Shown here: positions 6,251 to 55,057 of the stretch, piece after piece | Layout of the letters: the number at the start of each line of letters is the position of its first letter | Position numbering within the stretch: position 1 is the stretch's first letter | Assembly (NCBI GenBank): GCA_937960755.1 | Contig: CALGOL010000245.1 | Coordinates: forward strand, 1-57,657 | Length of the DNA: 57,657 nt | DNA from: an uncultured Azospirillum sp. | Lineage (GTDB): Bacteria; Pseudomonadota; Alphaproteobacteria; Azospirillales; Azospirillaceae | Direction: 5' to 3' | Notes under the pieces: model-generated | The model's input: the letters and a program-made list of their open reading frames with translations, nothing else | Database searches by the model: none | What the model was told of the DNA's origin: nothing | Program-made: the position numbers and the translations under genes

Positions 6251-6344
6251 ATGATAGCCCCCCGTAACCATCATCCGCCTCTGAGCAAAATGACGAAAAT
6301 CGATATTTTGCAGAGAGGCGGAAACCGGCGACCGACCGTAAAAT
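6251..6344. promoter_or_regulatory. Bidirectional activator-box promoter (traI and lipoprotein)
   Basis: Box AAATGACGAAAATCGATATTT 6288-6308; -10 TAAAAT at 6339 (+) and TATCAT at 6256 (-); inside a 49-bp imperfect palindrome 6274-6322. Confidence 0.65.
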
Positions 6345-6347
6345 GGG

Positions 6348-8720
6348 ATGATGAGTAACTGGCTGCAAAAAATAATTCAGAGGGGCAGGGCTCCCCAGCA
6401 ATCTCTGTCGAGTAGCGAACCGGACGAGGAGATCCCGGTATACCCTCCGTTTGCAAAAGGATTGCCGGCGGTCTCCTCTTCTCGCGTTCTGACGACGCAA
6501 GCCGCACTCCTCCGGGATATCCGGCAGTTGTTTCCTATGACCGACGACGAATACGCCTCAATCGTCGAGCCGGCGATCAGGGCCTATGCGGCCTTCGCGC
6601 ATCTGCTGCCGGCGAGCGAAGCGCACCATCACCGCGGCGCCGGCGGCCTCCTCCACCACGGCCTTGAAGTCGCATTCCTGGCGGGACGGGCCGCCGCCGC
6701 ACACGCCTTTCAGGCAGGAGCGACACCGCTTCAGCGCAAGCATTGGGAACCTCGATGGAGGTTGGCGATTTTCCTGGCCGGGCTGTACCACGACATCGGG
6801 AAACCGGTGACGGATCTTGAGGTCGTTGATCGCGACGGCGGGCAACGATGGACGCCGCTCACCGAAACGATCGAAGATTGGGCCCTGCGCTGCCAAATCC
6901 AGCGTTATTATTTGCGTTGGGTGCGCGGGCGCAAAGGACGGCATGAAGTTGTCGGAGCGGGAGCCGTCAGTCGGTTACTCCCGAAAGATACGTTGGTGTG
7001 GTTAGGCGACGGGGGAGGGGAGGCGACAATGGCCCTCATCGCCAGCTTTCAGCCCCAGGGCGGGGCTGCCGAACAACTCGCCATGGGCGAAATTGTGAAG
7101 GCGGCTGATCGCACGAGCGTTGCTCGCGACCTTGCGAGGACAGGCGAGGGGGCCATCAAAGATCCGGGCATCGGCGTTCCGGTCGAAGGATTTATCCTGA
7201 CCGCCGCCAGACACATGATCGCCAGTCAGAAATGGACGCCGAACAAGCCGGGTGGGCCGCTGTGGCTGCTTGATCTTGACGGGGACAAGGCTTGTTTTCT
7301 TGTGTGGAAGACCGCGGCTGAGAATATCATTGACCACTTACGCGAACACGAGGTTCCCGGCATCTCCAGAAGCCATGATGTATTGGCGGATATCCTGATT
7401 GAAAGAGGGCTTGCCCGCCAATATGTTGTAGATGCACAAAAATATCGCTATTGGCCGATTGCGCCGCAATCATTATCAGCGGCGAAACCGGTGCGCTTAT
7501 ATTTTTTGCGCCTTACCCATCTTGATGAACTTTTTGACCACACGCCTCCTTTCGAAAGAGGGGCGATCATTCTGAACCAAAATGAGAAGGTGAAGGCGGC
7601 AGAGGCGCGGACGGGCGATAGTTCACCGGCTTCTCCGCCGACAATCCCGGAAGCGTCGCCAGAGGCAGCCGTCAAAGAGACGGTGGCGGCGGAACCCATA
7701 ATAAATGAAACGGCTGCAATCAAGGCGAAGGAGGGGTCCTGCCCCGTGCCGAACGCAAAAGCGGTGCATCAGGTTGCTGCGGAGCCGGTCGTGTCGCCCC
7801 CGATATTTCAAGAGAGGGCAGGGGCCGGATCAAAGGGAGAGGACGGGACAAAAATCGTACCCGATGAAGCGGTCGCCCTCCCGGCCCGGCCTGGTTCCAG
7901 CGTCTCGCCGGCAATTGCACGACAGGCAGGGGAGGGGCCTCCATCGCAAGTTCACCCGCCGCGGCATGACGCAGGGCCGGCGGCAGGCGGCGAAAACCCA
8001 TGCTTGCCGTTGCTGGAAAGTGATTGGCTCGGGCGGGCGCTGCTTGCGTCAGCAAGGGATATCGCTGAAGGACGGGCCGCCTGGGGTGAGATGCTTTGCA
8101 TGATCGGTGAGAAAACCTTGATCAGGCACCCTGAATGGCTGCTCGAGGTGATCAAACATCCGGATTCCGCCGGAGCCGCTCTGGGCGACGCAGCGCAGGC
8201 GCTGATCAAGAGCGGCTGGATCATGCGTTACGATCCCGGATCGGCGTGGGTTTGGACCATCGCAGGCGTCAAAGGATTTGTCGTATGCGATGAAATAGCC
8301 CGATCGCTCTCAACCGCCGCCGACGGCGTCCCGGCGCCTGAAATTCTGAGCACGACACCGGTCGCTGTCGGGCCAAGCGCGGAGACAGCGCAAATTTCAG
8401 CGCCCAAGTCGGATCATAGGGGTTCGGTAGGCGCGGGGGATGCCGATGATTTGCCGGCCTTGCGTAAAAAGGATGCTCCTGCGGGCGACCCGGAGCTGGT
8501 CCAAGCTGTGGCGACGTTGGTGCGTGAGGTCTTGGCGGAGCCGCCGGCTGAATGGGTGCAGGATGAAGGCGCGTGGCGCAGCGTTCCAAAGAGAGCGATC
8601 GAAAGGCTGTTCCCCAGCTTCCCGCTGATCGTTCTGAGCGCTGAAATGCGGAATTGGTCGGTGATCAAAAAGGACGGCGACTCGTTCCTGTTCAAGAAAG
8701 CCGACGTCAATGCAGAATAA
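6348..8720 (+). CDS. traI: MOBH relaxase TraI (HD domain)
   Basis: YPPFAKGLP, LPASEAHHHRGAGGLLHHGLEVA, YHDIGKP, AADRTSV. Confidence 0.95.
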   Translation: MMSNWLQKIIQRGRAPQQSLSSSEPDEEIPVYPPFAKGLPAVSSSRVLTTQAALLRDIRQLFPMTDDEYASIVEPAIRAYAAFAHLLPASEAHHHRGAGGLLHHGLEVAFLAGRAAAAHAFQAGATPLQRKHWEPRWRLAIFLAGLYHDIGKPVTDLEVVDRDGGQRWTPLTETIEDWALRCQIQRYYLRWVRGRKGRHEVVGAGAVSRLLPKDTLVWLGDGGGEATMALIASFQPQGGAAEQLAMGEIVKAADRTSVARDLARTGEGAIKDPGIGVPVEGFILTAARHMIASQKWTPNKPGGPLWLLDLDGDKACFLVWKTAAENIIDHLREHEVPGISRSHDVLADILIERGLARQYVVDAQKYRYWPIAPQSLSAAKPVRLYFLRLTHLDELFDHTPPFERGAIILNQNEKVKAAEARTGDSSPASPPTIPEASPEAAVKETVAAEPIINETAAIKAKEGSCPVPNAKAVHQVAAEPVVSPPIFQERAGAGSKGEDGTKIVPDEAVALPARPGSSVSPAIARQAGEGPPSQVHPPRHDAGPAAGGENPCLPLLESDWLGRALLASARDIAEGRAAWGEMLCMIGEKTLIRHPEWLLEVIKHPDSAGAALGDAAQALIKSGWIMRYDPGSAWVWTIAGVKGFVVCDEIARSLSTAADGVPAPEILSTTPVAVGPSAETAQISAPKSDHRGSVGAGDADDLPALRKKDAPAGDPELVQAVATLVREVLAEPPAEWVQDEGAWRSVPKRAIERLFPSFPLIVLSAEMRNWSVIKKDGDSFLFKKADVNAE

Positions 8721-10527
8721 TAAATATGAGATACCATGGCGTCCCAATTACGAGGCCGCCGCCGCCGCGACATGGCTCGCCTCCGCCTTTGCTTCAGCGG
8801 CGGCCCCTTGGGCGACGGGGCTCTTCGCTCCGCCGTTTATAGCGGCGGCGGCGATCGCCGGGTTCATGACAATCCGCCGGGCGCGCCAAGCCCGTCGGCT
8901 GCACGTCCGCAAAGCGGGTCTTTCAGGTAAAAAACTGCACTTCATCAAGCTCTCAGAGCTGCGCAAATACATGCGCGACGATAATATCTGGCTCGGTTAC
9001 GGCTTTACCTGGGACCAGCCTCAGACCCAATTGGCGTTTGATTTGCAGTCGCGGGACAAGCGGGATCTCTTGCCCAAAAACACCGCTCAGATGGGCGCCA
9101 GCTGGCTGCACGGTCTCAGTCTTGAAGAACAACATTTTCATCTGCCGATCGATATGACCAAAGGGCATCTGCTGGTGGTCGGCACAACCGGCTCCGGGAA
9201 GACCAGGTTATTCGACCTGCTGATCTCACAAGCGATTATGCGCGGTGAGCCGGTGATCATCATCGACCCTAAGGGCGACCAGGAACTGGCCGCCAACGCA
9301 AGACGAGCTTGTGAAGCGATGGGACAGGGCGACCGGTATATCTGGTTCCATCCGGCATTTCCTGAGCGCTCGGCCCGCATTGATCCGATGCGCAACTACG
9401 CCCGCGCCACGGAACTCGCCGCCCGGATCGCCGGCCAAATGCCCTCTGAAGGCCCCGGCGACCCGTTCAAAAGCTATTCGCAAATGGCCCTCAACAACGT
9501 CATTCAGGGGCTCCTGCTGACCGGGCATAAACCGAGCATCCTCGCTATTCGGACTTATCTTGAAGGCGGAACGGAGGCGTTGGTCATCAAAAGCGTCGAA
9601 GTTTGGTGCGATGCGGAACTCGGTGCCGGTTGGCAGGATAATCCCGCGGCGAAACGGTATTTGCAGCAAGCAAAAGCGCCGACGCAACGGGCGCACGGTC
9701 TCATTCAATTTTATCGCACCTATGTTCACGAAACGGCGCCCAATCATGATCTGGAAGGGCTCTTGTCGATGTTTGAGCACGACAGAACTCATTTCGGGAA
9801 AATGATCGCATCCTTGTTGCCTTTATTGGGCCAGCTCACATCGGGCCACATGGGGTCGATGCTGTCGCCCGACCCGGCGGATCACGACGACCCCCGCCCG
9901 ATCGTCGATATGGCGTCAGTGATCAAGCAAAGATCGGTCTGTTACGTCGGCCTCGACTCTCTCGCGGACCCGATTGTCGGATCGGCGATCGGCGCGATCA
10001 TGCTCTCTGATCTGGCCGCCGTGGCCAGCGAAATCTATAATTTTTCTCCGTCAGACAGCATCAAGCCGGTCAACATCTTCGTCGATGAAGCGGCGGAGGT
10101 GGTCAATGACCCGTTGATCCAACTGCTGAACAAGGGCCGCGGCGCCGGCATCCGCGTCCTCATAGCAACCCAGACGCTGGCCGATCTCGAGGCGCGTCTC
10201 GGCAGCCCGGCGAAGGCCCGGCAGGTGCTGGGCAACGTCAACAACATCATCGCCCTGCGCGTGACGGACAACGACACCCAAACCTACATCACCGAAGGCT
10301 TGCCGACGGTGAGGGTCAAGTACGTGATGACCACGCAAGCCTCCAACATAGGAACCGGCGGTCACGAGACCATGCAGTTTTCGGGCGGCGCAGGCGAACG
10401 GCTGATGGAAGAAGAAGCTGAGGTTTTGCCCGCATGGATGCTCGGGAGACTGCCGAATCTCGAGTACTTCGCCCGGGTCGCCGGCGGTGAAATCTGGAAA
10501 GGCCGTCTGCCGATTTTGACTGGGTAA
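8710..10527 (+). CDS. traD: Type IV coupling protein TraD (SXT/IncC type)
   Basis: YEIPWRPNYE, Walker A GTTGSGKT, IIDPKGD, FVDEAAE, LNKGRGAG. Confidence 0.95.
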   Translation: MQNNKYEIPWRPNYEAAAAATWLASAFASAAAPWATGLFAPPFIAAAAIAGFMTIRRARQARRLHVRKAGLSGKKLHFIKLSELRKYMRDDNIWLGYGFTWDQPQTQLAFDLQSRDKRDLLPKNTAQMGASWLHGLSLEEQHFHLPIDMTKGHLLVVGTTGSGKTRLFDLLISQAIMRGEPVIIIDPKGDQELAANARRACEAMGQGDRYIWFHPAFPERSARIDPMRNYARATELAARIAGQMPSEGPGDPFKSYSQMALNNVIQGLLLTGHKPSILAIRTYLEGGTEALVIKSVEVWCDAELGAGWQDNPAAKRYLQQAKAPTQRAHGLIQFYRTYVHETAPNHDLEGLLSMFEHDRTHFGKMIASLLPLLGQLTSGHMGSMLSPDPADHDDPRPIVDMASVIKQRSVCYVGLDSLADPIVGSAIGAIMLSDLAAVASEIYNFSPSDSIKPVNIFVDEAAEVVNDPLIQLLNKGRGAGIRVLIATQTLADLEARLGSPAKARQVLGNVNNIIALRVTDNDTQTYITEGLPTVRVKYVMTTQASNIGTGGHETMQFSGGAGERLMEEEAEVLPAWMLGRLPNLEYFARVAGGEIWKGRLPILTG

Positions 10528-10533
10528 AGAATA

Positions 10534-11037
10534 ATGATCCGACTGAATAACGACACAATCACAGAACCTTCCGGGCTGAAGGGTTTCATCCGCCGAAATC
10601 CGCGGCAATCCGCGCATTTGCGAAGACTGCAAACGGATTGGCCGAGCGCGCGGCGGTTTGCCGAAAACGCGTCCCTTTTCTTAGGCGACGCTTTGACGAT
10701 CAGCGATCACGAAGCGGAGGAAGAGAACCGCCCTCTGCTGGATTACGCGATCACGCAGGGATTACGGGCATACGGGGCGGCGGGGGAAGCTGATGATGCC
10801 GCACGCCTCAGAGCATTCATTAAGACGACGAGCGATTTGATATGCGAGCGCCTCGCCGGCGTCGTCATTCGTTTCGACGACGGCGCGGTATGGCGCGCCG
10901 CCGGAAGCACGCCGCCGGCGGCCTTCTTGTCTGAACAAGCCGAACGCGGCGGGCGCTTTCTCGAGATCCTGATCGATGCTTCTCGCATGGCCGACGATCG
11001 TAAGGCGATTAAAGCTGCGCTAATGAAGAATTTATAA
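10534..11037 (+). CDS. Hypothetical protein between traD and traJ
   Basis: 167-aa ORF tightly packed in the operon; same slot as an SXT/IncC small gene. Confidence 0.6.
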   Translation: MIRLNNDTITEPSGLKGFIRRNPRQSAHLRRLQTDWPSARRFAENASLFLGDALTISDHEAEEENRPLLDYAITQGLRAYGAAGEADDAARLRAFIKTTSDLICERLAGVVIRFDDGAVWRAAGSTPPAAFLSEQAERGGRFLEILIDASRMADDRKAIKAALMKNL

Positions 11038-11052
11038 AAAGGGTCATTTATT

Positions 11053-11715
11053 ATGGACGCAGAAATAAAAATAGGAAAAGTATTTCTCTATCTTATAGTG
11101 ATAGTTGCTAGTGAATTTGCGATAATAGCCCTTATTTCAGGTTTTTACGGAAATAATTACATCAAGGACATTGAGCGGATTGATCGGGAGTTGGCGATTC
11201 AGTATATGAGCTTCGATGGAGCTCTTGACGCTGAGAGAGCGGCTCAACGAACATATAAGCATCTTATTGTCGATAATAACATTGATAAAACAATAAAAGA
11301 TTTTATATTGCCGAGCGATAATGAGAAGAATTCGAGCACCGGTCTCGAAGGGCTCGGTAAATATGATATATTTCCCGCCGCTGAAACAGCAATTGAATCT
11401 GTATTCCTGATTTTGCGGCGATTTTTAGTTAGAATCCAAGTCATCGCTTCCATATCCCCGGTCATGCTTTTGACCTTCGCGCTGCCGGCTGTAATAGACG
11501 GCATGATGCAATGGAGGCGTCGCCAATACAGTTTTGACTATCCTTCCCCCGTTGTCCACGGCACAGCGGCAACGATCGTAAAATGGACGATCATCACGCT
11601 CTTCGCTTACGCCTTGGCTCCGCTCCCATTCCATCCGCTAGCGCCTCTTTTAGGCGCGATGGTCCTCGGCTTATCCGCATCATTGTGGGCAGCTCACACG
11701 ATGAAGCGAATCTGA
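11053..11715 (+). CDS. traJ: DUF4400 membrane protein (TraJ of SXT/IncC)
   Basis: PAVIDGMMQWRRRQYSFDYPSPVVH, LAPLPFHP, ends MKRI; follows traD. Confidence 0.8.
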   Translation: MDAEIKIGKVFLYLIVIVASEFAIIALISGFYGNNYIKDIERIDRELAIQYMSFDGALDAERAAQRTYKHLIVDNNIDKTIKDFILPSDNEKNSSTGLEGLGKYDIFPAAETAIESVFLILRRFLVRIQVIASISPVMLLTFALPAVIDGMMQWRRRQYSFDYPSPVVHGTAATIVKWTIITLFAYALAPLPFHPLAPLLGAMVLGLSASLWAAHTMKRI

Positions 11716-11734
11716 TGACGACTTTGCAGGCTTC

Positions 11735-11792
11735 AAGTTTAAAAAATCGGCATTTATCGCACGCGCGGCGAGGGGCCGAGGCGCACTAGACT
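11735..11792 (+). promoter_or_regulatory. Activator box and -10 of traL operon
   Basis: AAGTTTAAAAAATCGGCATTT 11735-11755; TAGACT at 11787; AAAAATCGGCATTTATCGC identical to the dsbC promoter. Confidence 0.7.
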
Positions 11793-11828
11793 AGATCTAA
11801 TCCAGCAACACGTAGCCAGGAGGGGTGG

Positions 11829-12107
11829 ATGCAGGTGGATATCCCCCGAACAATAGACGAGCCGCCGACTGTCCTGCTCTGGACGGTCGATGAAGCGATG
11901 CCGACGCTGGTGGGGCTATTGGTCGGCATGGCTTTGGGAAACGCCCTGATCTTCACTTTGGCCGGAGTTTTGGCGACGCGCTTTTACCGGCGATACCGGG
12001 ACAGTCGTGCTGACGGACACCTGCTGCACGGCCTATATCGGCTCGGGGTCATTTCAAATAAAAGCCGAGCCTTCGCTGAACCCTTCGCTTTGAGGTTCAT
12101 TCCGTGA
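11829..12107 (+). CDS. traL: TraL pilus assembly protein
   Basis: IPRTIDEPPTVLLWTVDE, YRRYRDSRADGHLLH. Confidence 0.9.
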   Translation: MQVDIPRTIDEPPTVLLWTVDEAMPTLVGLLVGMALGNALIFTLAGVLATRFYRRYRDSRADGHLLHGLYRLGVISNKSRAFAEPFALRFIP

Positions 12108-12739
12108 ACTTGCTGAGATTTTCAGATACATGGCGAGGGGCTATGGCTGAAAACCGCTTTTCGCGATGGGCGATCGGCGGGCTGATCATCACCAATATGA
12201 TTTTGATTTTTGTCATCGCCGGCAAAGATCGAACCGTGGTGATTGCGCCGCCGGAAATCAAAAGCCAGGTTGAAATATCAAGAGCTTCGGCCAACGAAGG
12301 CTACCTCGAGGCGTGGACCTTGAGCCTTGCGATGCTGCTTGGAAACATCACGCCAGGAAATGCTCCAACGGTGAAGGGGAACCTCGAACCGTTCCTGGCG
12401 CCGGAAATTTTCGCCGATGTCACGGTCAATATCGACCGGGCAGTTAATGAACTGACTCATTCGCGCATCACGCTCAAGTTTGAGCCGCTGAAGGTGGTGT
12501 TTGAGCCTGGGTCAGGGAAATGGTACGTGACAGGATACCGCACCCAGACAGGACCTGCCGACGACGGGCGCCGCGAGCAGGCGACATACGAAATGCAATG
12601 GGAAATCAGGAACTTTCGCCCGGTTTTGACCCGTATCCAGCATTATACAGGTAAACCTAGAACCGAAAAAGAACTGGACAGACTGACCGTCGATCAAGAA
12701 CGGGCGGAGCGCCGCGCGCGCGACCAGCAGGGACGATGA
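12104..12739 (+). CDS. traE: TraE pilus assembly protein
   Basis: N-terminal TM, RTVVIAPP, YLEAW..LAMLLGNITPGN. Confidence 0.9.
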   Translation: MNLLRFSDTWRGAMAENRFSRWAIGGLIITNMILIFVIAGKDRTVVIAPPEIKSQVEISRASANEGYLEAWTLSLAMLLGNITPGNAPTVKGNLEPFLAPEIFADVTVNIDRAVNELTHSRITLKFEPLKVVFEPGSGKWYVTGYRTQTGPADDGRREQATYEMQWEIRNFRPVLTRIQHYTGKPRTEKELDRLTVDQERAERRARDQQGR

Positions 12740-13734
12740 AAATGAAATATCCAAATGTCTTCGCCGCAGCAGGCATTTTCTTGTCTTTGTTCGTCGGCAG
12801 AGCGGCGACGGCGCAAACACCACAAGATTTGCAGGCGGAACTGGACCGGGAGATGCCGGTCGTTTCAGCCCCCAGCCCCACGGCTGCGCCGACGCCTCAG
12901 CCTGAGCCGGCGAAACACAGCAGCACAGCCGCGCCTCCCCTTTCTCAACCCGCGCTGATTACTCCATTGCCAGAAGTGCCGCGTGACGTCATTCCGCCGC
13001 CTGAAGACACATCTCGTCCGATCAAAATCGATATGAAGCCGGGCGTCACGGAAATTGTCGCTGTCGCGATCGGACACCTCAATCGACTTGTCACGCCTTT
13101 CAGCGAGCCGAATGTCGTGACAACATCGGACGCGATGACCAAGGTCTCCGGCAACGTGGTCTACGTCTCCACCGACAAACCAGCGACACTCTACATCACG
13201 CCCAAAGGCGACGAAACAGTGGCGCTGGGCTTGGCCCTCGTGCCGCAAAGAGTGCCGCCGCGCGAGGTGATATTGACCTTGAGCGACCAGGGTCGGGGAT
13301 GGAAGACCTCGCAATCGGCGGCCAAGGCTGAAGCATGGGAGAAAGACCAACCCTTTCTGGACGCGATTCGCTTCGTCATGCGCGATACCGCTTTGGGGAG
13401 GGTCCCGCCCGGCTATGACGCCCGGTCGCTTTCCCGTGAGGACCGCACCCCGGTCTGCGCCGCTCCATCCGGCGTAACGATCACCTTTACCGGCGGCCAA
13501 CTCCTTCGCGGAGCCGCATTAGAGGCCGTTGTCGGCGTGGTCAGAAACCAGACCGCCCAACAGGCTGATCTTGATGAAACGTGGTGCGCGACGCGCGACG
13601 TGGTGGCGATCGCCTATTGGCCGCAGGTGTCGTTGCCGCCGGGAGGGGCCGCCGAAATTTATTTGCTGCGTCGCGCGGCCGGACAAACGCCGCCGATCAT
13701 TGAACGACCGTCGTTACTGGGAAATGGCCGATGA
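12736..13734 (+). CDS. traK: TraK secretin-like protein
   Basis: Signal peptide, PGVTEIVAVAIGHLNRLVTPF, LVPQRVPPREV, AYWP. Confidence 0.9.
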   Translation: MKMKYPNVFAAAGIFLSLFVGRAATAQTPQDLQAELDREMPVVSAPSPTAAPTPQPEPAKHSSTAAPPLSQPALITPLPEVPRDVIPPPEDTSRPIKIDMKPGVTEIVAVAIGHLNRLVTPFSEPNVVTTSDAMTKVSGNVVYVSTDKPATLYITPKGDETVALGLALVPQRVPPREVILTLSDQGRGWKTSQSAAKAEAWEKDQPFLDAIRFVMRDTALGRVPPGYDARSLSREDRTPVCAAPSGVTITFTGGQLLRGAALEAVVGVVRNQTAQQADLDETWCATRDVVAIAYWPQVSLPPGGAAEIYLLRRAAGQTPPIIERPSLLGNGR

Positions 13735-15218
13735 TCTCGCTTACCGATGTCGCCGCGAGCTGGTCGGGTTTGAGCGCCCGAACGCGTCGTTGGACAACGC
13801 TCGGCGTCGGCGGCGCTGCGCTGCTGGGCGGCATGTACGTGCTGATGCCCGACGACGCGCCGAAACAAAGAGCGCAATCGACAAGACAAGCAACCGTGGA
13901 AGCCATCCTGACGGATAAAGACCCGCGATCGACCTCCATGGACAGCATGGCCGCCCGGATCAAGCAACTGGAAGAACGCTTAACCGGCGCTACAGCGGAA
14001 TTGGAGCGTTTACGCGAGGACGCTGGGCGAAGGGAACGGCGAACCGAAAAACCCGAGGGCGCAGACGCCTCCCAGGCTCAACGCGCGGCCTTGGAAATGC
14101 AGATCGGCGAGTTGCAGCGAAAGGTCAATGAACTGACCGCCGCGACAACAGCCAGGGACGGGGCCGGCGCGGGGCGTACGGGCGGCGCAATTGCGCCGAC
14201 AGCGACCGTACCGCCGAGACCGACAATAGCCGGCGGCTCTCAGCGACCTACCGCCGGCGATCTTTATGGCGGCGGCAATGGAGGCCCCATCAGCGCCAAT
14301 CCGGCGGCGGGCGGGGCGTTGGCGGCGCCTCCGGATCGGTCAGCGCCAAGTGGCCAAGGCCTAAAAGCAGGCGAAATCCGCACCATATCGGCATCAGCGG
14401 AACCTGCAGCTTTGTCAGCCGGGCAGGGCGCGGGAAAGAACGAAGACGCGCTCGGAGATTATATACCTTCAGGGTCTATTTTAGGCGCGCACTTCATCAC
14501 CGGCATGGACGCCGCCACGTCCAACTCAGCGCGCGACCAACCCTTGCCGGCGCTGTTGCGGGTCAATCACGCGGCTATATTGCCTAACCGCTTTCGGAGC
14601 GATATCCGCGAATGCTTCATGCTGGTGGCGGGCTACGGCGACATGTCGAGCGAGCGCGCCATGCTTCGCGGCGAAACCCTGTCCTGCATCACCAAGGACG
14701 GCAAGCCGATTGAAGCATCGCTGTCGGCCTACGTGGCCGGCGAAGACGGCAAAGCTGGCGTGCGGGGCCGCATGATCTCTAAGGAAGGGCAGGTGATCGG
14801 TCGGGCGCTTATGGCCGGATTTTTGGAAGGGGCCTCGAAAGCGTTTGACGTTAAACCCGTGCCGATCTTGTCCACTAATCCGGGCGGGCGGACGCAGTAT
14901 CAGGACAATTTCGCTGGCGTGGACAGTCTGAAGTCCGCCAGCTTGGGCGGCGCCGGATCCGCTCTGGAACAGGTCGCCAAATACTATATCGACATGGCGA
15001 AAAACATATTCCCAGTGATCGAAATAGATGCGGGGCGGCAAGTTGACCTGATCGTCACCCGAGGCGTATCGCTGAAGTTCGGCGCTCATCCCGCATCCAC
15101 GCCGGTGGCGGCGGCTCCGGGCGCTCGGTCGAGCGGAGCGCCCGGTCAGCAGGGCCAGGGAAAGGGACCGCTGTCCTTTTTGGATCAATTTAATCCCGGT
15201 GCCGGACAGGCCCGCTAG
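13731..15218 (+). CDS. traB: TraB (VirB10-like)
   Basis: YIPSGSIL, TGMDA, LPNRFRSDIRECF, GEDGKAGVRG, FPVIEIDAGR. Confidence 0.95.
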   Translation: MISLTDVAASWSGLSARTRRWTTLGVGGAALLGGMYVLMPDDAPKQRAQSTRQATVEAILTDKDPRSTSMDSMAARIKQLEERLTGATAELERLREDAGRRERRTEKPEGADASQAQRAALEMQIGELQRKVNELTAATTARDGAGAGRTGGAIAPTATVPPRPTIAGGSQRPTAGDLYGGGNGGPISANPAAGGALAAPPDRSAPSGQGLKAGEIRTISASAEPAALSAGQGAGKNEDALGDYIPSGSILGAHFITGMDAATSNSARDQPLPALLRVNHAAILPNRFRSDIRECFMLVAGYGDMSSERAMLRGETLSCITKDGKPIEASLSAYVAGEDGKAGVRGRMISKEGQVIGRALMAGFLEGASKAFDVKPVPILSTNPGGRTQYQDNFAGVDSLKSASLGGAGSALEQVAKYYIDMAKNIFPVIEIDAGRQVDLIVTRGVSLKFGAHPASTPVAAAPGARSSGAPGQQGQGKGPLSFLDQFNPGAGQAR

Positions 15219-15503: not shown

Positions 15504-15561
15504 AAATCACGAAAAAGCGTGTTTTGCCGCCGCGCGAAGATCAGCGAATTCGCGATAGCAT
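15504..15561 (+). promoter_or_regulatory. Activator box and -10 of traV-traA operon
   Basis: AAATCACGAAAAAGCGTGTTT 15504-15524; TAGCAT at 15556. Confidence 0.6.
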
Positions 15562-22599: not shown

Positions 22600-22656
22600 A
22601 ATTACCAAAAATCGGCATTTATCGCGAGCGCGCGAGGACGAGAACTTCGCTAATCT
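22600..22656 (+). promoter_or_regulatory. Activator box and -10 of dsbC-traC operon
   Basis: AATTACCAAAAATCGGCATTT 22600-22620; TAATCT at 22651. Confidence 0.7.
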
Positions 22657-29861: not shown

Positions 29862-29865
29862 GGAG

Positions 29866-29974
29866 TTATCCCGCAAAAAACATCGTATAAATATAAGCAG
29901 GATAACACAAGTGATATCAATATGATATAGAATTTTATCCAGCAAACATTGTTCAATGTGGTTATGCAGGATAA
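29866..29974. promoter_or_regulatory. Twin inverted-repeat operator upstream of the nucleotidyltransferase
   Basis: TTATCCCGC-N22-GCAGGATAA (29866-29905) and TTATCCAGC-N22-GCAGGATAA (29935-29974). Confidence 0.65.
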
Positions 29975-30149: not shown

Positions 30150-30207
30150 AAATCAAGAAAAGCGGCAACTTTCGACAGCGCGAAGGCCAGCCTTTTAGGC
30201 TCAGAAT
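30150..30207 (+). promoter_or_regulatory. Activator box and -10 of traN
   Basis: AAATCAAGAAAAGCGGCAACT 30150-30170; CAGAAT at 30202. Confidence 0.55.
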
Positions 30208-33799: not shown

Positions 33800-33856
33800 A
33801 TAATATCGAGCTTTTTGGAGCGCCGCCCTGTTGCAAAATTCTGATTTTTGCAATTT
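33800..33856 (-). promoter_or_regulatory. Activator box and -10 of acaB
   Basis: AAATTGCAAAAATCAGAATTT on - (33856-33836); TATTAT starting at 33805. Confidence 0.65.
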
Positions 33857-46092: not shown

Positions 46093-46329
46093 CTCGCAGC
46101 TCGCTCTCCATTGATAGACAGCGGCAGGTCAATGGCTGCCCGGGCATCTCAGCGCCGGACGGCGGTTGACCAGGCTGGGCCAGATGCTTCGCCATGCCCC
46201 AATGCAAATGCCGCGGCGGGATCAAGTGCCTCCGGATTATCGGCGTCCTCCGGAGGCTGTCGACTGATCGGTTCAGGATCCTGGATGGATAATCGATGAC
46301 GGTTCATATTGGCATACGCCCCCCAACTC

Positions 46330-48705
46330 TTATTCCAAATATAAGGGGCTTGACTGTTCGGGAGGCGCTTCTTCTGCTTCGCGGATTCCCAAAACTGGCC
46401 AGAATGCCGGGTTCACGATGTAGGTGGCAGCATCGCCCAGTCTGCTGGCTCGGATCTTTAGCAGCTTCACGTCATAGTTGATGTCGTAGATAAAGAACTC
46501 GGTACCCGCTGCCCGCAGCCCGACCACGCCGTAGTAAAGGAGGAAGTCTATGACCCGATCGACTGCATCGACCCCAACACCGGCCTCTGTGATCAATCCC
46601 TTCAATTGCGGTCCCGAGAGCGCGCTCGCCGCATCCGCAAAATGGTAGAGCAGGTTCGGTGCCTCAGGAAAGACGTCTGCTAGTTCATGATCCAATTCAA
46701 CGAGGAGATCCTGTGAGTATGCCTTCAGGCCCTTCACAATATCCTCATCTGTAATCTTCTGGCGGTTGAAGTTAGTTGCAAAGCCGCGGCTGTGGTTGAC
46801 GATTTTAAGGACGTTCCGGGGGCGCATGAGCGAGCGAGCGATGATGTAACTGGAGCTCTCTTCACCGCGCACATGCGACGCGCACACGGTATGCCAGATT
46901 TGATCGAAGGCCATGTCCGCGGCTCGGCCATCGAAGCCGGACACCAGCCGCAGGCGCAGCATCTCCCGCAGCATATCGGTATCCGTCCAATCCAATGGTG
47001 CCCGCATCTCCTTGCCGTAGTCAGCGCTGTTCTTCATCAGATGGTCGTACACGTCGTTTCGGACGAACACGATGCAATGAAATGTATGGTTCGCTTTACG
47101 CATCTCCCGCTCGACCTTGCGGCCAGCATCAATGAGGCAACGGAGTACGATGGCGTCGATCACGTCCACGCCCTGGGTGCTCCAGCCCTTGTCCAAGTTA
47201 TCGAAGAGCACCCAGACGGACTCCTTGCGCTCAAGATAAGCAGAGAGCTTCTGCCGCAACTGCCGGATGTCATGACTGTAGAGGAGTTCCGTCACCTGCT
47301 GTGCGGTCAGCTTGCGGCCGTCTTCCTGTCCGTAGCGCCCTTTGTACTGTTCGGCAATCTGCTGCGACAGCGTCAAAAGGCGCTCTGAGAAGTCACCTTC
47401 CGCCGAGAAGTTACCAACACGGTATGATCCATCGAGATCAAGATAGAGATCGTGAATTTCGTGGTTAAATTTGTACACAGCACGATCCTTCTCGAGGAGC
47501 TTGTACGCGACCTCGAGCAAGATGAGGTACTCCCAGAAGGCGGTAATCAGGTGCTGGCGCGCACCATCGGTGAGATACGAAAGGATGTCTTCCTTCAGCT
47601 TCAGGAGTTGGTAGCCCTCGGGCTTCAGATCGACAACGATGTTACGCCGGTCGGAGCGGACCTTGTCGCGCAGTTGGATGAACAGCGCGGTCTTGCCGGA
47701 TCCCTTACGACCGACCACCAAGTTCACCTCGCCGCGCAACGCTCGCTGGTACTGGTCGGTGCGCAGGTAATAGTTGGCGAGCGTCGTCATCTCATTCTCA
47801 GCGGTAGGGTCGCCTATGCTAAGGGACTGTAGGACGCCGCCGGTCTCAATGGGCGGAGGGTCAGCCTGCTGAAGGTGGTCGGTTATCTCGGGGCAGAAGG
47901 CGGCGACGTGTTCGCTAATGTCATCAGGGTGGCGATAACTCCTCACCGCGTCACGAACGTCTAATGGCGCGTCGTAGCCTGCCGGGGCAAGGAGCAGGGT
48001 CGGTTTCCCCATGCCGTCGGCGAGGCCGGCCACGAACATCGCGCGGATATTATGGACCACGGCGCCATCTACCGATGTCTCTTGGATTAGCATTACGACG
48101 CCCGCGGAGGCGGCGACTTGACGCACAGCGTCGGTAGCGGACAGGCGTACGTCCTCGCTCGGATTGAAGCTGCGATAACGGTAGGCAGCCTTCTTGATTC
48201 GCGAGGTGGTGCGTGTGGCCGCTGCGGTACGCGTCGGCGGTTCGACGATGTACACCGGAGCCTTCCGGTCGAGAGCCGATCCAAAGGCTAGCGGTGTCGG
48301 ATCGATGTGGCTCGCCAAACGGTGCTTAAGGTCATCGTGCGTTTCGTACTCGTGGTAGCCAAGGGTATCGAATATTCCCGCCTCCTTGGCCAAGGCTCGG
48401 TCGCCGTCGATCTTCCGGTGGCGGACTAGGAACGCCCGCTTACCGCGTCCGATTGCGAACCCGACCTCGTATACGACATTGAGGTTCAGGTACGTGATGT
48501 CGGCGACAACAAATATTGACTCGTCGATCCGCGCGAGGATGGGCGATACTAGCGGATTGCCGGCGATGTCATTGAACACCCATGGCTCATACCGGACCTG
48601 CAGGGGCAGTGCGTTCGCATGGGACACACCCTCCCGAATGGTCTGCATCAGCGCTTCGTCGCGGGATGGATAGGCCACAAAAGCGAGAGAGGGCGCGATA
48701 GACAT
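46330..48705 (-). CDS. Sll1717-family P-loop ATPase with N-terminal NDT/TIR-like domains
   Basis: VADITYLNLNVVYEVGFAIG; IGDPTAENE, VVGRKGSGKTALF, VLFDNLDKGW, MRPRNV. Confidence 0.82.
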   Translation of the reverse strand: MSIAPSLAFVAYPSRDEALMQTIREGVSHANALPLQVRYEPWVFNDIAGNPLVSPILARIDESIFVVADITYLNLNVVYEVGFAIGRGKRAFLVRHRKIDGDRALAKEAGIFDTLGYHEYETHDDLKHRLASHIDPTPLAFGSALDRKAPVYIVEPPTRTAAATRTTSRIKKAAYRYRSFNPSEDVRLSATDAVRQVAASAGVVMLIQETSVDGAVVHNIRAMFVAGLADGMGKPTLLLAPAGYDAPLDVRDAVRSYRHPDDISEHVAAFCPEITDHLQQADPPPIETGGVLQSLSIGDPTAENEMTTLANYYLRTDQYQRALRGEVNLVVGRKGSGKTALFIQLRDKVRSDRRNIVVDLKPEGYQLLKLKEDILSYLTDGARQHLITAFWEYLILLEVAYKLLEKDRAVYKFNHEIHDLYLDLDGSYRVGNFSAEGDFSERLLTLSQQIAEQYKGRYGQEDGRKLTAQQVTELLYSHDIRQLRQKLSAYLERKESVWVLFDNLDKGWSTQGVDVIDAIVLRCLIDAGRKVEREMRKANHTFHCIVFVRNDVYDHLMKNSADYGKEMRAPLDWTDTDMLREMLRLRLVSGFDGRAADMAFDQIWHTVCASHVRGEESSSYIIARSLMRPRNVLKIVNHSRGFATNFNRQKITDEDIVKGLKAYSQDLLVELDHELADVFPEAPNLLYHFADAASALSGPQLKGLITEAGVGVDAVDRVIDFLLYYGVVGLRAAGTEFFIYDINYDVKLLKIRASRLGDAATYIVNPAFWPVLGIREAEEAPPEQSSPLYLE

Positions 48706-50967: not shown

Positions 50968-51089
50968 TCCAGAAACCTCCGTCGCCCAACGGGAGCACAA
51001 ACCATGGCCGTGTGCCGAAAAGACATAATGTGGTACGATGCGATGGTTGCCAACTAGCGCGAGATCGCCGCAATTAAGGAGTAAGTGAA

Positions 51090-51305: not shown

Positions 51306-51570
51306 TAGTCGTAGAAAATTGGCAGGCCATTATGAATACATGACCCGAAGGCAGAGAGCTTTGCTCAGTCAGCGAACTTTCGAAACCGCCGCCATCAGCT
51401 CGCATGGATGATCCCAGCGGGCTTGAGGCAATGAGTGGCCTCTCTATTCTGAGAGAGGTCGTGGTTATTGTGTCGCCACGCGGTCGGCAGAAAAATTCCC
51501 GCGAGGCGTGGTTGAAGATAGGAACCGGTGCGTTCGAGCCCGTTGATTAACTTTCCCAATTCATTCTGAT

Positions 51571-51627
51571 AAATGAGAATAATCTGCATTTTCCAATGTC
51601 GCGGCTCAAGCCCGTCGTGACTAAAAT
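51571..51627 (+). promoter_or_regulatory. Activator box and -10 of dsbA operon
   Basis: AAATGAGAATAATCTGCATTT 51571-51591; TAAAAT at 51622. Confidence 0.65.
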
Positions 51628-51665
51628 AATAATTGACATGAGCATAATCAAGGAGATGCAGCAGT

Positions 51666-52595
51666 ATGCAGATTTTCCAAAAAGCGAGCAACAGCGCTTC
51701 ATGCCGCCCATTCTTTACAAAATTGAGCACAACCTTCATTACCGGACTTTTGGCCGGATTAGCGACAACAGGCGCAGCCTTCGCCGGGGCGCCCGCCGAC
51801 AAAGGCGTTACGATCGCGATCTCCGCACTTCAAGCGGCCATCGCATCCGGGAGCCGAGAGGAATCGGCGGCGGCTTTGAACCTGCTCGAAGCGAGCGTGG
51901 CCAGGCTCGAGAAAGCCGCCAAATCCGAGCAACCGCCGTCAGACCACCTGGACGCCGCCATCGCCGCCTGGATCAAATCCCACCCGGCCGACATAGTCGC
52001 CGCGGTCAACGCCTACATGGCTGAACAGCGAACCGCCAATCAGCCGAAGCTGGAAGACTTTCGCGCCCGCGAGCCTGAAATCTTCGGCGGCGGGGTCTCG
52101 GTCGGCCCAAACGACGCCAAGGCGGAACTGGTTGTTTTCGCCGACTTCAATTGCGGCTTTTGCCGCAAAGCCCAGCCGATGCTGGCGGCGCTGCGCGCTG
52201 CGCATCCTGACCTGAAGATCGTTTACCGCGACTTCCCCATTCTTTCCCCCTTGTCAACCACGGCGGCGCGCGTTGCACGGGCGGCGGGCCTCCAAGGCAA
52301 ATTCCTTGCCTTTCATGATGCGCTTTATGAAATGGATCGTTTCACGGAAGCGGATCTGTGGCGCATCGGCGGAGAACTGGGCCTTGACGTCGAGACCCTG
52401 AAACGGGACGCAGGTTCGACGCAGGTCATTGATGCGGTTGAAAAGGATGGCGCGTTGGCTCGCTCGCTGAAGATCGGCGGCACGCCGTTTTTCCACGTTC
52501 GTGGCCATGATCGGTTGATGCCGGGGCTTGTCTCGATTGAGGACCTCACCCGCGCGATCACCCAAGCGCGGATGACGGGGGAGGGGCGCCGATGA
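51666..52595 (+). CDS. DsbA/Com1-like thiol-disulfide oxidoreductase
   Basis: FADFNCGFCRK, YRDFPIL, GGTPF; signal-like N-terminus. Confidence 0.9.
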   Translation: MQIFQKASNSASCRPFFTKLSTTFITGLLAGLATTGAAFAGAPADKGVTIAISALQAAIASGSREESAAALNLLEASVARLEKAAKSEQPPSDHLDAAIAAWIKSHPADIVAAVNAYMAEQRTANQPKLEDFRAREPEIFGGGVSVGPNDAKAELVVFADFNCGFCRKAQPMLAALRAAHPDLKIVYRDFPILSPLSTTAARVARAAGLQGKFLAFHDALYEMDRFTEADLWRIGGELGLDVETLKRDAGSTQVIDAVEKDGALARSLKIGGTPFFHVRGHDRLMPGLVSIEDLTRAITQARMTGEGRR

Positions 52596-53161
52596 TCCAC
52601 CGACGCAGCAGGGCCTTCGACTTTGCCGCGGCGATTGTCAGCTTCGTGGCGATCTGCGCAAGCGCGAACGTCGCTCTTGCGCAGTCGCCGCCGCTCCCTA
52701 GCGCTGCCGGCGACGGCTGGGGAGCGGCGACGGCGGCCGTCCGCGCCTATTACGCCCGCACGGAGGATCTTTCGACCGTACTGCGGGCGGCGACAGCGCC
52801 TCTGGTCTCCACAGAAGGCCTGATCGTGTTTCAGCCGATCAGGACGGCGGTGAATGGCGAATACAGGGGACGGGAGTGCGATTTTTACCAAAAACTAAAG
52901 ACCACCGACTTCGCTCAAAACCCATACTTCGCCGATGCATCACTCCAGGTGGCGAAGGCGACGCTTCCGCTGCAGCTCATCACCAGAGACGTGATTAGCG
53001 AAATCGGCAGTTACATCGCATACGGGGCGGGAACCGGCGAACCGGCGGCCTGTGTGTGTGAGCCCATGCCGATCAAGGAAGTGACCGAAATCTGTGATCG
53101 TCTTTTTCGCCCGCCTGAAGAACACGATCAAAGCCGATTCATGGCCGCCGGCTTTCGTTGA
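52592..53161 (+). CDS. Exported hypothetical protein
   Basis: Signal peptide ending ALA, four Cys in the mature part, coupled to dsbA. Confidence 0.6.
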   Translation: MIHRRSRAFDFAAAIVSFVAICASANVALAQSPPLPSAAGDGWGAATAAVRAYYARTEDLSTVLRAATAPLVSTEGLIVFQPIRTAVNGEYRGRECDFYQKLKTTDFAQNPYFADASLQVAKATLPLQLITRDVISEIGSYIAYGAGTGEPAACVCEPMPIKEVTEICDRLFRPPEEHDQSRFMAAGFR

Positions 53162-53240
53162 TTTTGAATAGATTTCCTTAATCCGCGTCGTTAAATTGGC
53201 CGCTGAATTGGTGACGGCGACTATGTCGCGTGGAAAGAGC

Positions 53241-54182
53241 ATGACCATCGCTCCAAGACAGACGATAGGCCCTCTGTTGATTTGCGCCGTCGCTTTTCTC
53301 GCGACCGCGTGCGTTTCAGGCGGCGACATAGACCGGCGCAGCCCCGGCGACGCATCCCGAGCGCTTCAGCTTGTCCAAGCGGCCGATCTTCTTGGCTTGA
53401 AGGATGCTGAAGCTCCCCAGTCAGCCGGCACCACCGGCATCTCGCCCACATTGCCCTCCGCCGCCCTTGTCGGCGGGCTGAACGCGCTTAGCCCTCCGTT
53501 CGGCATCAGCAGCGCGGCGGCCGGCGCGCTCGGTTTCGCATCAATGTTTTTCGACGGACCCGGGCCGGCGAGCGCATCAGGAACAACGCTCATTCTCGCC
53601 TGGGCGCCGAAGGAATTGGCGGCTTCAGAAACTGAAGCATGGCGGCTAATTGATTCTCGCGTTCAAGAAGCTCTGGCAGCGGCGCTGCAGGAAACCCGCC
53701 TCCCGGACCGATACCGGGTGGAGCGCACCGAGCGTAAGACCAAATCATATCGCCCGGGCAAGGCGCTTTTCCCCACGGCTTACGACGGCGTCGAGGTTTC
53801 CTGGCGCATCAAAGGCGGCGACTGTGATTTGGAGAAGGTGGCATGTCGCTATGTGGCGGCCCTGCCTGTTCCACCGGTCGAAACGCGAGCGCCGGCGCTA
53901 CTCGGAGGCTATCCGGCTTGGGGATATGTTCGCACGCAAGGCATGGCCAGCATATCGGCCACCTTTATCGATAACCGGGAGTTCCGGTCAAAATTCCGCG
54001 CGGTTTTTCCTGATCTTGAGGTGCTGCGCAAAGCGTCCGCCCGCCTGCCGGAATGGATAGCGATCTATGTTGCGCCTAATACAATGGCGCACCGTAACGA
54101 CTCAGTGGGGGAACCCTCTTTCATCCCGTACCCTTTGTTATTGCAGGGCGGTAAAGCGTTGTTCTTCGTCCGCGGCAGCTAA
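53241..54182 (+). CDS. Lipoprotein, possibly a surface-exclusion (IncC Sfx-like) factor
   Basis: LATA-C lipobox; SRAL...LKDAE, ILAWAP, LPEWIAIYVAP resemble my recollection of the IncC lipoprotein (unverified). Confidence 0.55.
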   Translation: MTIAPRQTIGPLLICAVAFLATACVSGGDIDRRSPGDASRALQLVQAADLLGLKDAEAPQSAGTTGISPTLPSAALVGGLNALSPPFGISSAAAGALGFASMFFDGPGPASASGTTLILAWAPKELAASETEAWRLIDSRVQEALAAALQETRLPDRYRVERTERKTKSYRPGKALFPTAYDGVEVSWRIKGGDCDLEKVACRYVAALPVPPVETRAPALLGGYPAWGYVRTQGMASISATFIDNREFRSKFRAVFPDLEVLRKASARLPEWIAIYVAPNTMAHRNDSVGEPSFIPYPLLLQGGKALFFVRGS

Positions 54183-54376
54183 TACCAGAAGCCGGACAAA
54201 ACCCCGGCGGTCCAGGAGAGCAGTTTTCCCTGCGCCCAAGCAACCCCAGACGCCGTCAATCCTGGGACGCTGAATTCCAGGTACATCCCGGAGCCCATGC
54301 CGACAAGAAAGATAGTCAGCGGCGACCGGGCCAATTGCATCGCGACGCCGAACAAAATGAATCGGACAAACATCAT
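54179..54376 (-). CDS. Small hydrophobic protein downstream of slt
   Basis: 65 aa hydrophobic ORF filling the gap. Confidence 0.45.
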   Translation of the reverse strand: MMFVRFILFGVAMQLARSPLTIFLVGMGSGMYLEFSVPGLTASGVAWAQGKLLSWTAGVLSGFWY

Positions 54377-54408
54377 GTCTGCACCAGCCGGGAAGAGGGA
54401 AGGGGGGC

Positions 54409-54954
54409 CTAAAGTGTCCGCAGATTGAAATAGATGGCCAGCACCCGCCGCCCGTATTTCCGAGCCGTCAGCTCGTCTCCCCAGCAGTTATAGCGACCGA
54501 TCCCCAACTCCAGATCGCCTGGGGCGCGATTGAGCGCTTCACGCAAGATCGATGCGCCGACGCGGACATTGACCGCCGGGTTCAGAAAATCGACAACGCG
54601 CGGAGCTTTCTTGGCGTGGTCCGCCAAATGAATCTGCATCAAGCCGACATCAAGTTTCGCCAACTCGCCCGCCGTCATGCCGCCAAGAATGCGAGCGGCT
54701 TCGCCGTACGTTTCTGGCCGCCTTGTTCGGGACGGCGTCGACAGCGTGAAGGGGTGAGGTTTGACCACATTCCCGTAAACGCGGTGCGATTCTTGTAATG
54801 CCACGGCGTAAAGCATCAGCGGATCAATGCCGTAGTCCTGCCCAGCGTCAGACCACGACGTGCCCGCAAGGGCCAAAGCATCGGCTCCATCAGGCGCCGC
54901 AAAAAGGGCAGTGACAGCGCCTATTGCTGTACAAAATGAACGACGACCGATCAT
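54409..54954 (-). CDS. Lytic transglycosylase (SLT domain)
   Basis: YGIDPLMLYAVALQES, DVGLMQI, NVRVGASIL, GRYN; Tat-like GRRSF signal. Confidence 0.9.
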   Translation of the reverse strand: MIGRRSFCTAIGAVTALFAAPDGADALALAGTSWSDAGQDYGIDPLMLYAVALQESHRVYGNVVKPHPFTLSTPSRTRRPETYGEAARILGGMTAGELAKLDVGLMQIHLADHAKKAPRVVDFLNPAVNVRVGASILREALNRAPGDLELGIGRYNCWGDELTARKYGRRVLAIYFNLRTL

Positions 54955-54999
54955 TTTACATACTTACCATCGGTTATTATTGGGGAGTTCCCAAGGAGC

Positions 55000-55057
55000 A
55001 ATATACTGCGTCGGCGAGCAACGGCGCTACGTCGCAAGATGCGGCTTTTCATCATTT
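55000..55057 (-). promoter_or_regulatory. Activator box and -10 of slt
   Basis: AAATGATGAAAAGCCGCATCT on - (55057-55037); TATATT starting at 55005. Confidence 0.65.

What the first reader, a model, noticed from the sequence alone, without database searches (positions are those of the whole stretch)
6288..55057. A new transfer-activator box at nine promoters defines a hidden regulon
Seen: a 21-bp quasi-palindrome AAAT-N13-ATTT with a central A-tract, ending 31-32 bp before the first base of a -10 hexamer and with no good -35. Sites: traI (6288, TAAAAT), divergent lipoprotein (TATCAT), traL (11735, TAGACT), traV (15504, TAGCAT), dsbC (22600, TAATCT), traN (30150, CAGAAT), acaB (33856-, TATTAT), dsbA (51571, TAAAAT), slt (55057-, TATATT). 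Known: IncC AcaCD and SXT SetCD, FlhDC-like activators, act just upstream of -35 at equivalent operons. Inference: a master activator, encoded outside the window, whose site does not resemble the AcaCD/SetCD boxes as I recall them; it also places dsbA, 52592-53161, slt and the lipoprotein in the transfer programme.
Basis: partly seen in the sequence, partly recalled or inferred. Interest (0 to 1): 0.82.

Follow-up and report, generated by a model that had tools for sequence, protein, structure and literature searches.

The report
Conjugation switch also wired to CRISPR
A repeated 21-bp box sits in front of nine plasmid promoters here and three more on a second contig; it is likely the binding site of the plasmid's own FlhDC-type conjugation switch, and one copy precedes a Cas12m CRISPR gene whose neighbouring spacers match a mobile island that likely hitch-hikes on the plasmid.

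Summary
The box is real. All 8 sites rank 1-3 of ~115,000 positions in leave-one-out tests. A window-trained matrix found three more on contig C473, before traF, parM and cas12m, against one equal hit in the other 3.25 Mb.

C473 encodes the predicted activator, an flhD/flhC pair closest to SetD/SetC; flhD has a stop at codon 32 in this population. The claim that the site is unlike SetCD/AcaCD boxes fails: all align at zero shift with the same spacing to -10. It is a new-specificity variant; Azospirillum plasmids carry sister variants at the same operons.

The unexpected part: one box precedes a nuclease-dead Cas12m beside an array and type I-G genes, and 3 of 5 spacers match one mobilisable element in this genome whose excisionase promoter has a weaker box. 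Inferred model: the switch wakes both the hitcher and a CRISPR that silences it. This is one case, untested. The scan noted activator boxes on other DNA before, not this motif or link.

The parts
6288..6308 (+). Box used in both directions: traI (GCG 6318-6320, -10 TAAAAT 6339-6344) and the divergent lipoprotein (-10 TATCAT 6256-6251)
5914..6219 (-). Lipoprotein-like gene, positional counterpart of IncC vcrx059 (weak match, 29% over 87 aa, E 1e-4)
6351..8720 (+). traI, MOBH relaxase; the ATG at 6351 lies 6 nt after the -10, so the mRNA is likely leaderless
11735..11755 (+). Box before traL-E-K-B (-10 TAGACT 11787-11792)
15504..15524 (+). Box before traV-traA (-10 TAGCAT 15556-15561; traV ATG 15588)
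22600..22620 (+). Box before dsbC-traC-trhF-traW-traU (-10 TAATCT 22651-22656)
30150..30170 (+). Box before traN (-10 CAGAAT 30202-30207)
33836..33856 (-). Box before the acaB-like gene (-10 TATTAT 33805-33800); no GCG or -10 in the opposite direction towards ssb-bet-exo
51571..51591 (+). Box before dsbA and 52592-53161 (-10 TAAAAT 51622-51627); the same pair is boxed in TSA2s p1
55037..55057 (-). Box before slt (54409-54954) and a 65-aa ORF (54179-54376); -10 TATATT 55005-55000; lies inside the last codons of a MYG1-family ORF
5641..5661 (+). Orphan dyad (22.6 bits) between repA and the lipoprotein, no GCG at +10 and no fitting -10 in either direction; role unexplained
57093..57657 (+). Cas1 gene (best model Cas1g) cut by the contig end; likely faces the cut cas5/6g at the start of C473

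Best explanation
The box plus a downstream GCG marks twelve promoters with no usable -35 on an IncC/SXT-like conjugative plasmid, and it is likely the binding site of the plasmid's FlhD/FlhC-family activator encoded on contig C473, which would recruit RNA polymerase and switch on transfer, partition and cas12m genes together. Shown: motif, spacing, operons, activator genes, the box before cas12m, spacer matches. Inferred from SetCD/AcaCD: binding and class II activation, with the dyad centre about 53-54 bp before the start and GCG standing where -35 would be. Inferred from gene content: C245 and C473 are one ~92-kb replicon. In this population the regulon is probably silent because flhD has a stop at codon 32. 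More tentatively (about 0.4), the same activator also wakes a mobilisable element in this genome, and activator-induced Cas12m would bind and silence its excision and mobilisation genes.
For: Held-out hits at traF, parM and cas12m, each with GCG and a -10 at 30-31 nt. FlhC family hit E 6.9e-9 over the cut-off; best plasmid match SetC of R997 at 39.9%; upstream ORF matches SetD, 29% over 78 aa across the stop, E 4e-10. Box end to -10: 30-31 nt here, 29-30 in 10 of 10 R997 sites, 29-30 in 7 of 7 pVCR94 sites kept; motif similarity peaks at shift 0 for all 6 pairs. [quoted passage not shown] A sister box with the same GGCGCG and spacing occurs at 18 promoters of TSA2s p1 and a third variant at 3 promoters in G046. 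All 6 of 129 family genomes with 5 or more matches to the TSA2s pattern have flhC; 113 of 117 without flhC have none. traF ATG lies 6-7 nt after the -10 in 3 of 3 alphaproteobacterial elements. One replicon: complementary gene sets, nearest tetranucleotide neighbour of 92 contigs, cut cas genes at the facing ends.
Against: No binding, reporter or start-site data. Co-occurrence with flhC does not single it out, since the whole plasmid travels together; G028 and G039 carry boxes letter-identical to the pattern's training sites, and kin are not independent. 6 of 12 flhC-positive genomes have no match to that pattern. FlhD scores only E 0.025 on Pfam, below cut-off, and has no BLAST match to TSA2s FlhD. 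The tree does not resolve the activator's position. No box before flhDC or the ssb-bet-exo operon, which is boxed in R997 and pVCR94. C245 and C473 share no end overlap. The SetCD and AcaCD sites compared are my own Gibbs predictions, and the column-shuffle null ignores shared A/T-tract structure. In SXT, deleting everything upstream of -53 did not lower activation (PMC4344509 passage), so the left arm of the dyad may be dispensable.
Confidence: 0.85

Rival explanations
1. The activator is FlhDC-like, but the box before cas12m is an old transfer promoter captured when the CRISPR cassette inserted beside traF; co-regulation is incidental and the spacer matches reflect ordinary defence.
For: TSA2s p1 has leftward boxes at the equivalent place, driving unrelated ORFs (L006 8588- and 8800-). 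Cas12m was not found in 129 family genomes, 400 phylum genomes or PLSDB, and the one viral-contig homologue has no tra genes nearby. The array leader has its own promoter-like site and cas3g has an AT-rich 230-bp gap upstream.
Against: The cas12m box scores 34.8 bits, inside the training range, with GCG and -10 intact, and no consensus promoter was found on that strand upstream of the ATG. The targets are on an element that itself has a box-like site. Capture and later selection are compatible.
Confidence: 0.4
2. Another plasmid protein reads the box (the AcaB-like protein, the Crp-like HTH, LysR or an XRE protein), or the sites are a private promoter class for an unusual sigma factor.
For: These regulators are encoded on the two contigs; co-occurrence cannot separate them from FlhC. 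An earlier scan note proposed a sigma-like reader for another element (e1-1208143).
Against: Geometry and operon set match SetCD/AcaCD promoters. No sigma-family Pfam hit among the 62 window and 25 C473 ORFs scanned. The -10s are ordinary sigma-70 type.
Confidence: 0.1
3. The boxes are repressor operators or merely AT-rich UP-element-like tracts.
For: The central A-tract lies upstream of -35, where UP elements sit (own knowledge); dyad symmetry is weak, 5.5 of 10.
Against: No -35 exists to give basal activity. Zero hits in 387,830 AT-rich control positions. The GC-rich TSA2s variant keeps the same position.
Confidence: 0.04

Closest known systems
SetCD boxes of SXT/R391 ICEs (PMC4344509; R997 analysed here)
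   Same: 21-bp dyad of the AGATG-N11-CATCT type in the same register, 29-30 nt before -10, no -35; FlhC closest to SetC (39.9%), FlhD matches SetD; boxes at traL, traV, dsbC, traF, srpM/parM and the acaB counterpart.
   Different: Arms read AAAT/ATTT; the downstream element is GCG at +10, not CTGACC at +3; SetCD sites score a mean -2.6 bits on this matrix against 25.2 for its own sites, so cross-activation is unlikely. This element has repA and parAB, no integrase was seen, and no SetR-type repressor sits beside flhDC.
AcaCD boxes of IncA/IncC plasmids (PMC4207636; pVCR94deltaX analysed here)
   Same: Same dyad centre, 41 bp before -10, central A-tract, one dyad serving divergent traI and lipoprotein promoters, separate traN promoter.
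   Different: AcaCD reads inner GCCC/GGGC arms; AcaC is only 28.5% identical; slt is outside the activator operon; no box for the recombination operon.
SGI1-type and other islands that hijack AcaCD or SetCD (PMC4207636 section 10, PMC8409611, PMC6414798)
   Same: The C510+C233 element has a PF12835 relaxase-like gene with a small partner and a box-like site before an HTH_17 excisionase-like gene and a DUF3987 gene.
   Different: No integrase or att site was seen; no tra or sgaCD genes on the 17.5 kb held; its box is weak, with a 3-of-6 -10; it is matched by the helper's spacers.
Plasmid-borne type V-M (Cas12m) CRISPR systems (PMC11656645, PMC10442227)
   Same: 620-aa protein, PADLOC Cas12u1 E 3e-69, PDB Cas12m E 5e-15, H-E-K RuvC triad as in clade 1, TTN flanks at all three targets.
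   Different: [quoted passage not shown]

Membership tests
FlhCD-like conjugation master-activator regulons (SetCD/AcaCD class) | Adjacent flhD-like and flhC-like genes on a MOBH/MPF-F element, near traG, parM/srpM and mobI | tested here: met
   C473: traFHG 9209-14846, flhD 22983-23273 (stop at codon 32), flhC 23320-24045, parM, mobI
FlhCD-like conjugation master-activator regulons (SetCD/AcaCD class) | One motif before the split transfer operons (traI, traL, traV, dsbC, traN, traF) | tested here: met
   6 of 6
FlhCD-like conjugation master-activator regulons (SetCD/AcaCD class) | Motif abuts or overlaps a non-consensus -35, at a fixed distance from a sigma-70 -10 | tested here: met
   12 of 12 promoters; same distance as R997 and pVCR94 sites
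FlhCD-like conjugation master-activator regulons (SetCD/AcaCD class) | The complex binds the box and activates transcription | not testable with these tools
   Needs ChIP-exo or reporters; the one RNA run held 0.05 of the words, as contigs only
SetCD box proper | Sites fit the SetCD matrix at own-site level | tested here: not met
   Our sites score a mean 1.2 bits on the R997-derived matrix against 20.7
AcaCD box proper | TGCCC-A/T tract-GGGCA core | tested here: not met
   Our sites score a mean 0.8 bits against 25.0
CRISPR subtype V-M (Cas12m) | About 600-aa Cas12 with an altered RuvC triad beside an array | tested here: met
   H316, E469, K560; array of 6 repeats 135 bp downstream
CRISPR subtype V-M (Cas12m) | The array's crRNAs load into Cas12m, which silences without cutting | not testable with these tools
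   The array could serve the type I-G genes instead or as well; repeat type not assigned
SGI1-like integrative mobilisable elements (for C510+C233) | MpsA-type tyrosine-recombinase relaxase (PF12835) with a small partner | tested here: met
   C510:691-1659 PF12835 E 5e-9, followed by a 139-aa ORF; PF12835 is used as a DTR-like signature in PMC10484663; not aligned to SGI1 MpsA itself
SGI1-like integrative mobilisable elements (for C510+C233) | Integrase and att site | tested here: inconclusive
   None on the 17.5 kb held; both outer ends are unresolved, and homologues of the relaxase also occur on small plasmids
SGI1-like integrative mobilisable elements (for C510+C233) | Helper-activator box before the excision or replication genes | tested here: inconclusive
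   C233:7431+, 18.2 bits, rank 2 of 6.47 million positions, GCG in place, weak -10; chosen after the genome scan

The most novel reading that the evidence does not exclude
A conjugative plasmid has wired an RNA-guided silencer into its transfer programme: the activator that turns on conjugation, and is hijacked by a mobilisable parasite to excise itself, also turns on Cas12m, whose guides sit on the parasite's activator-dependent start site, its replication gene and its relaxase start. Defence against hitchers would thus be timed to the moment they wake.
Probability: 0.4. Interest if true: 0.82.

Novelty: new variant of a known kind. Interest (0 to 1): 0.62.

Why it matters
It extends the SetCD/AcaCD type of transfer switch, studied in Gammaproteobacteria, to a plasmid family likely of Azospirillaceae with at least three box specificities. 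It also shows that SetCD, AcaCD and these boxes fit one register, although SetCD and AcaCD sites have been described as drastically different (PMC4344509 passage). That gives a way to predict which helper can wake which island. If cas12m is truly in the regulon, it is a case of CRISPR expression coupled to conjugation and of a helper targeting its own hitcher, which I did not find reported in ten literature searches. The intact TSA2s plasmid is a cultured system in which the box model can be tested directly.

Tried and rejected
Chance or AT-richness: rejected.
Recoding of the flhD stop: no support. The related population in run X2 has a sense codon there, so it is a nonsense allele; run X1 and locus L011 carry the stop but may be the source sample.
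Close relatives with whole transfer regions: the genome-contig scan with TraC gave 1 distant locus, the metagenome scan only the same plasmid, a viral-contig pattern scan 0, and the order search repeated the family.
Recurrence of the box-cas12m link: could not be shown.
Relatives of the island's promoter: none useful; the one DUF3987 relative, G077, has no box.
Targets for the other two spacers: nothing convincing in this genome, plasmids or phages.
A first motif comparison had the SetCD set one base out of register and was redone. traV (unstable Gibbs site) and traA (poor site) were dropped from the 9 pVCR94 regions, leaving 7.
RNA run X3 covered two 151-base pieces only and is no evidence of expression.
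A 53-bp match between C233 and C544 was not treated as a join.
No structure or complex prediction was run.
Full report
Setting. The window is the whole contig C245 of a 3.35-Mb, 679-contig genome, 85% complete. It carries parAB, repA, a MOBH relaxase, F-type transfer genes, an acaB-like gene and ssb-bet-exo. It lacks traF-H-G, mobI and an activator; these lie on contig C473. The best TraC match is 57% to Azospirillum plasmids, and TSA2s p1 is syntenic. Because same-genus genomes carry the TSA2s-type box, I infer an Azospirillaceae host. C245 and C473 share GC content (59.1% and 58.7% against 63.6% for the genome), C473 is the nearest of 92 contigs by tetranucleotides, and the facing ends are cut cas genes, Cas1g and Cas5/6g. 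No sequence overlap joins them, so one replicon is inferred, not shown.

The observation. Leave-one-out ranks are 1 for seven sites and 3 for one among 115,241 positions, and no local shuffle reaches them (0 of 1000 each). The matrix trained on the window alone found three sites of 20 bits or more on C473, at 9145+ (traF), 26117- (parM) and 8444- (cas12m), against one in the other 3.25 Mb. Each has a -10 at 30-31 nt, a background chance of 0.11 per site. The full element is a loose dyad, AAaT-N3-aAAAtC-N-GcATtT, then GCG 10-12 bp downstream in 12 of 12 promoters, where -35 should be. The best -35 match is 1-3 of 6. The traF ATG lies 6-7 nt after the -10 here, in TSA2s and in G046, and the traI ATG does so here and in TSA2s. 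This fits leaderless mRNAs and supports the -10 calls; an earlier scan note on another element suggested looking for this.

The activator. C473:23320-24045 is FlhC-like (E 6.9e-9), 39.9% to SetC, 34% to TSA2s FlhC and 28.5% to AcaC. Three metagenomic relatives at 76-82% share its length. The ORF before it matches SetD across an in-frame stop at codon 32, though Pfam FlhD is below cut-off and TSA2s FlhD gives no alignment. Run X1 and locus L011 have the stop; the related population in run X2 has a sense codon. The regulon is therefore probably off in this population. No box precedes flhDC.

Comparison with known boxes. I derived sites de novo from 10 R997 and 9 pVCR94 upstream regions and kept 10 and 7. 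The pVCR94 consensus agrees with Table 1 of PMC4207636; the published SetCD logo is a figure I could not see. Centred on their dyads, the four motifs (this one, TSA2s, SetCD, AcaCD) align best at shift 0 in all six pairs. This motif against SetCD gives p 0.001 and against AcaCD p 0.0003, with a null that also takes its best shift; TSA2s against AcaCD is not significant (p 0.06). Box end to -10 is 30-31, mostly 31, 29-30 and 29-30 nt respectively. Cross-scores are near zero against 20-25 bits for own sites, so specificities differ. A caveat: in SXT the sequence upstream of -53 was dispensable (PMC4344509 passage), so the right arm and downstream element may carry the function.

Conservation. 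TSA2s p1 has 18 boxes, GAA-AGACG-N11-CGTCT-TTC-N3-RGCGCG, including both directions at traI, and traL, traV, dsbC, traN, acaB, dsbA, traF and parM. A pattern from them hit 5-17 times in 6 of 12 flhC-positive family genomes, 1-3 times in 4 of 117 flhC-negative ones, and 0 times reversed in all 130. Two of the six carry boxes identical to the training sites. Of the six flhC-positive genomes without hits, G046 has a third variant at 3 of 3 promoters examined, G010 and G083 show no tra homologues in the 38 and 68 kb fetched, and three were not examined further.

The CRISPR link. Box 8444- lies 113 bp before a 620-aa Cas12m-like gene with an H-E-K triad, clade 1 by PMC10442227. Downstream on the same strand are six repeats and cas3g, cas8g, cas7g, cas5/6g. 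Three of five spacers match contigs C233 and C510, which overlap uniquely by 55 bp and so form one element of at least 17.5 kb. The matches are 32 of 36 in a DUF3987 gene, 25 of 34 (19 of the first 20) at C233:7494, and 29 of 35 over the region just upstream of and including the start of a PF12835 gene. All have a 5' TTN flank. Only 19 of 1000 shuffled spacers gave any hit at that E-value. The best site outside the plasmid that has box, GCG and a -10-like hexamer is C233:7431+, before an HTH_17 excisionase-like ORF and the DUF3987 gene; the 7494 target begins at its predicted start. This site is weaker: 18.2 bits with 12 training sites (0 of 5000 local shuffles), 11.7 with 8 (9 of 5000), a 3-of-6 -10, and it was picked after scanning the genome. 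Boxes before excision and replication genes are how SGI1-type islands exploit AcaCD (PMC4207636 section 10).

Mechanism. Shown by sequence: boxes, geometry, activator genes, cas12m behind a box, spacer matches. Inferred by analogy (0.85): FlhD-FlhC binds the box and recruits sigma-70 polymerase, as described for SetCD and AcaCD (PMC4542580 section 14). Inferred more weakly: cas12m is induced with transfer (about 0.7), the island promoter responds (about 0.55), and Cas12m silences it, together about 0.4. The imperfect matches may allow binding without Cas3 cutting, and the flhD stop might relieve a conflict with the resident element; both are speculation. Against selection for the link: it is a single case, TSA2s has leftward boxes at the same place before other genes, and the array and cas3g may have their own promoters. 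Binning could also have mixed cells.

Literature. Ten searches showed, at listing level, no report of these alphaproteobacterial boxes or of a cas gene under a SetCD/AcaCD-type box; subscription papers are largely missing. Seen: PMC4542580 abstract and outline, section 14 part 1 and section 24; PMC4207636 sections 9 and 10 and passages; passages only of PMC4344509, PMC11656645, PMC8409611, PMC10838148, PMC11493245, PMC6414798, PMC10484663, PMC11389934 and PMC10442227. I opened no supplements; the AcaCD matrix (S1 Matrix of PMC8409611) and the promoter alignments there could refine the comparison. Plasmid-borne Cas12m is known, and PMC11389934 states that plasmid CRISPR targets are typically not hitchers.

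Verdict. A real regulon of a known kind with a new box specificity, about 0.45 alone. The box before cas12m and the spacers against a likely hitcher raise it to 0.62.

Noticed in passing
G000:C473:22983-23273: flhD-like gene with a stop at codon 32; the related population in run X2 has a sense codon there.
   Followed up: yes
G000:C473:1-8331 and window 57093-57657: Hybrid CRISPR locus: Cas12m, six-repeat array, type I-G cas3g-cas8g-cas7g-cas5/6g and a convergent Cas1g, between the primase region and traF.
   Followed up: partly
G000:C510 + C233 (L048, L047): Mobilisable element of at least 17.5 kb: PF12835 relaxase-like gene and partner, restriction and methylase cargo, UvrD helicase, excisionase-like gene, DUF3987 gene; matched by 3 of 5 spacers.
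   Followed up: partly
L034:7056, L035:7409 and matching sites in G028, G042, G044, G045, G055: A conserved TSA2s-type box drives, in the two loci read, a 126-aa ORF 35% identical to the 139-aa partner of the island's relaxase-like gene.
   Followed up: partly
L042:1642-2223 (G010) and L039-L040 (G083): FlhC-like genes without tra neighbours; in G010 next to ORFs that look like Tad-pilus genes, in G083 next to secretion or usher-like ORFs (labels by eye). Possibly domesticated activators.
   Followed up: no
L036:8945-9520 (G042); also G044, G045, G055: A second, divergent FlhC-like clade in genomes that also carry boxed plasmids; in G042 it lies near boxes and parAB homologues.
   Followed up: no
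window 5641-5661 and 11029-11049: Box-like dyads without GCG or -10; the first lies in the AT-rich region upstream of repA.
   Followed up: partly
window 16573-22553: Two large proteins with thrombospondin-1 and PKD domains between traA and dsbC; conserved in TSA2s, where the first has its own box.
   Followed up: no
window 44815-48705 and 28854-29945: Defence-like cargo: DrmA-like/DUF4325 gene, Sll1717-family ATPase and a nucleotidyltransferase.
   Followed up: no
G000:C473:19202-22493: LysR, nucleotidyltransferase-like, GNAT and RHH genes just upstream of flhDC; LysR genes also lie near flhDC in TSA2s and G046, so they are candidate upstream regulators.
   Followed up: no
G000:C473:26117-26660: Repeats between parM and mobI, the position of oriT in IncC and SXT.
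   Followed up: no
L031 (G011), L032 (G002), L033 (G054): Boxes in genomes with no flhC match; G011 and G054 look like plasmid remnants (dsbA pair, parM fragment), G002 is unexplained.
   Followed up: partly
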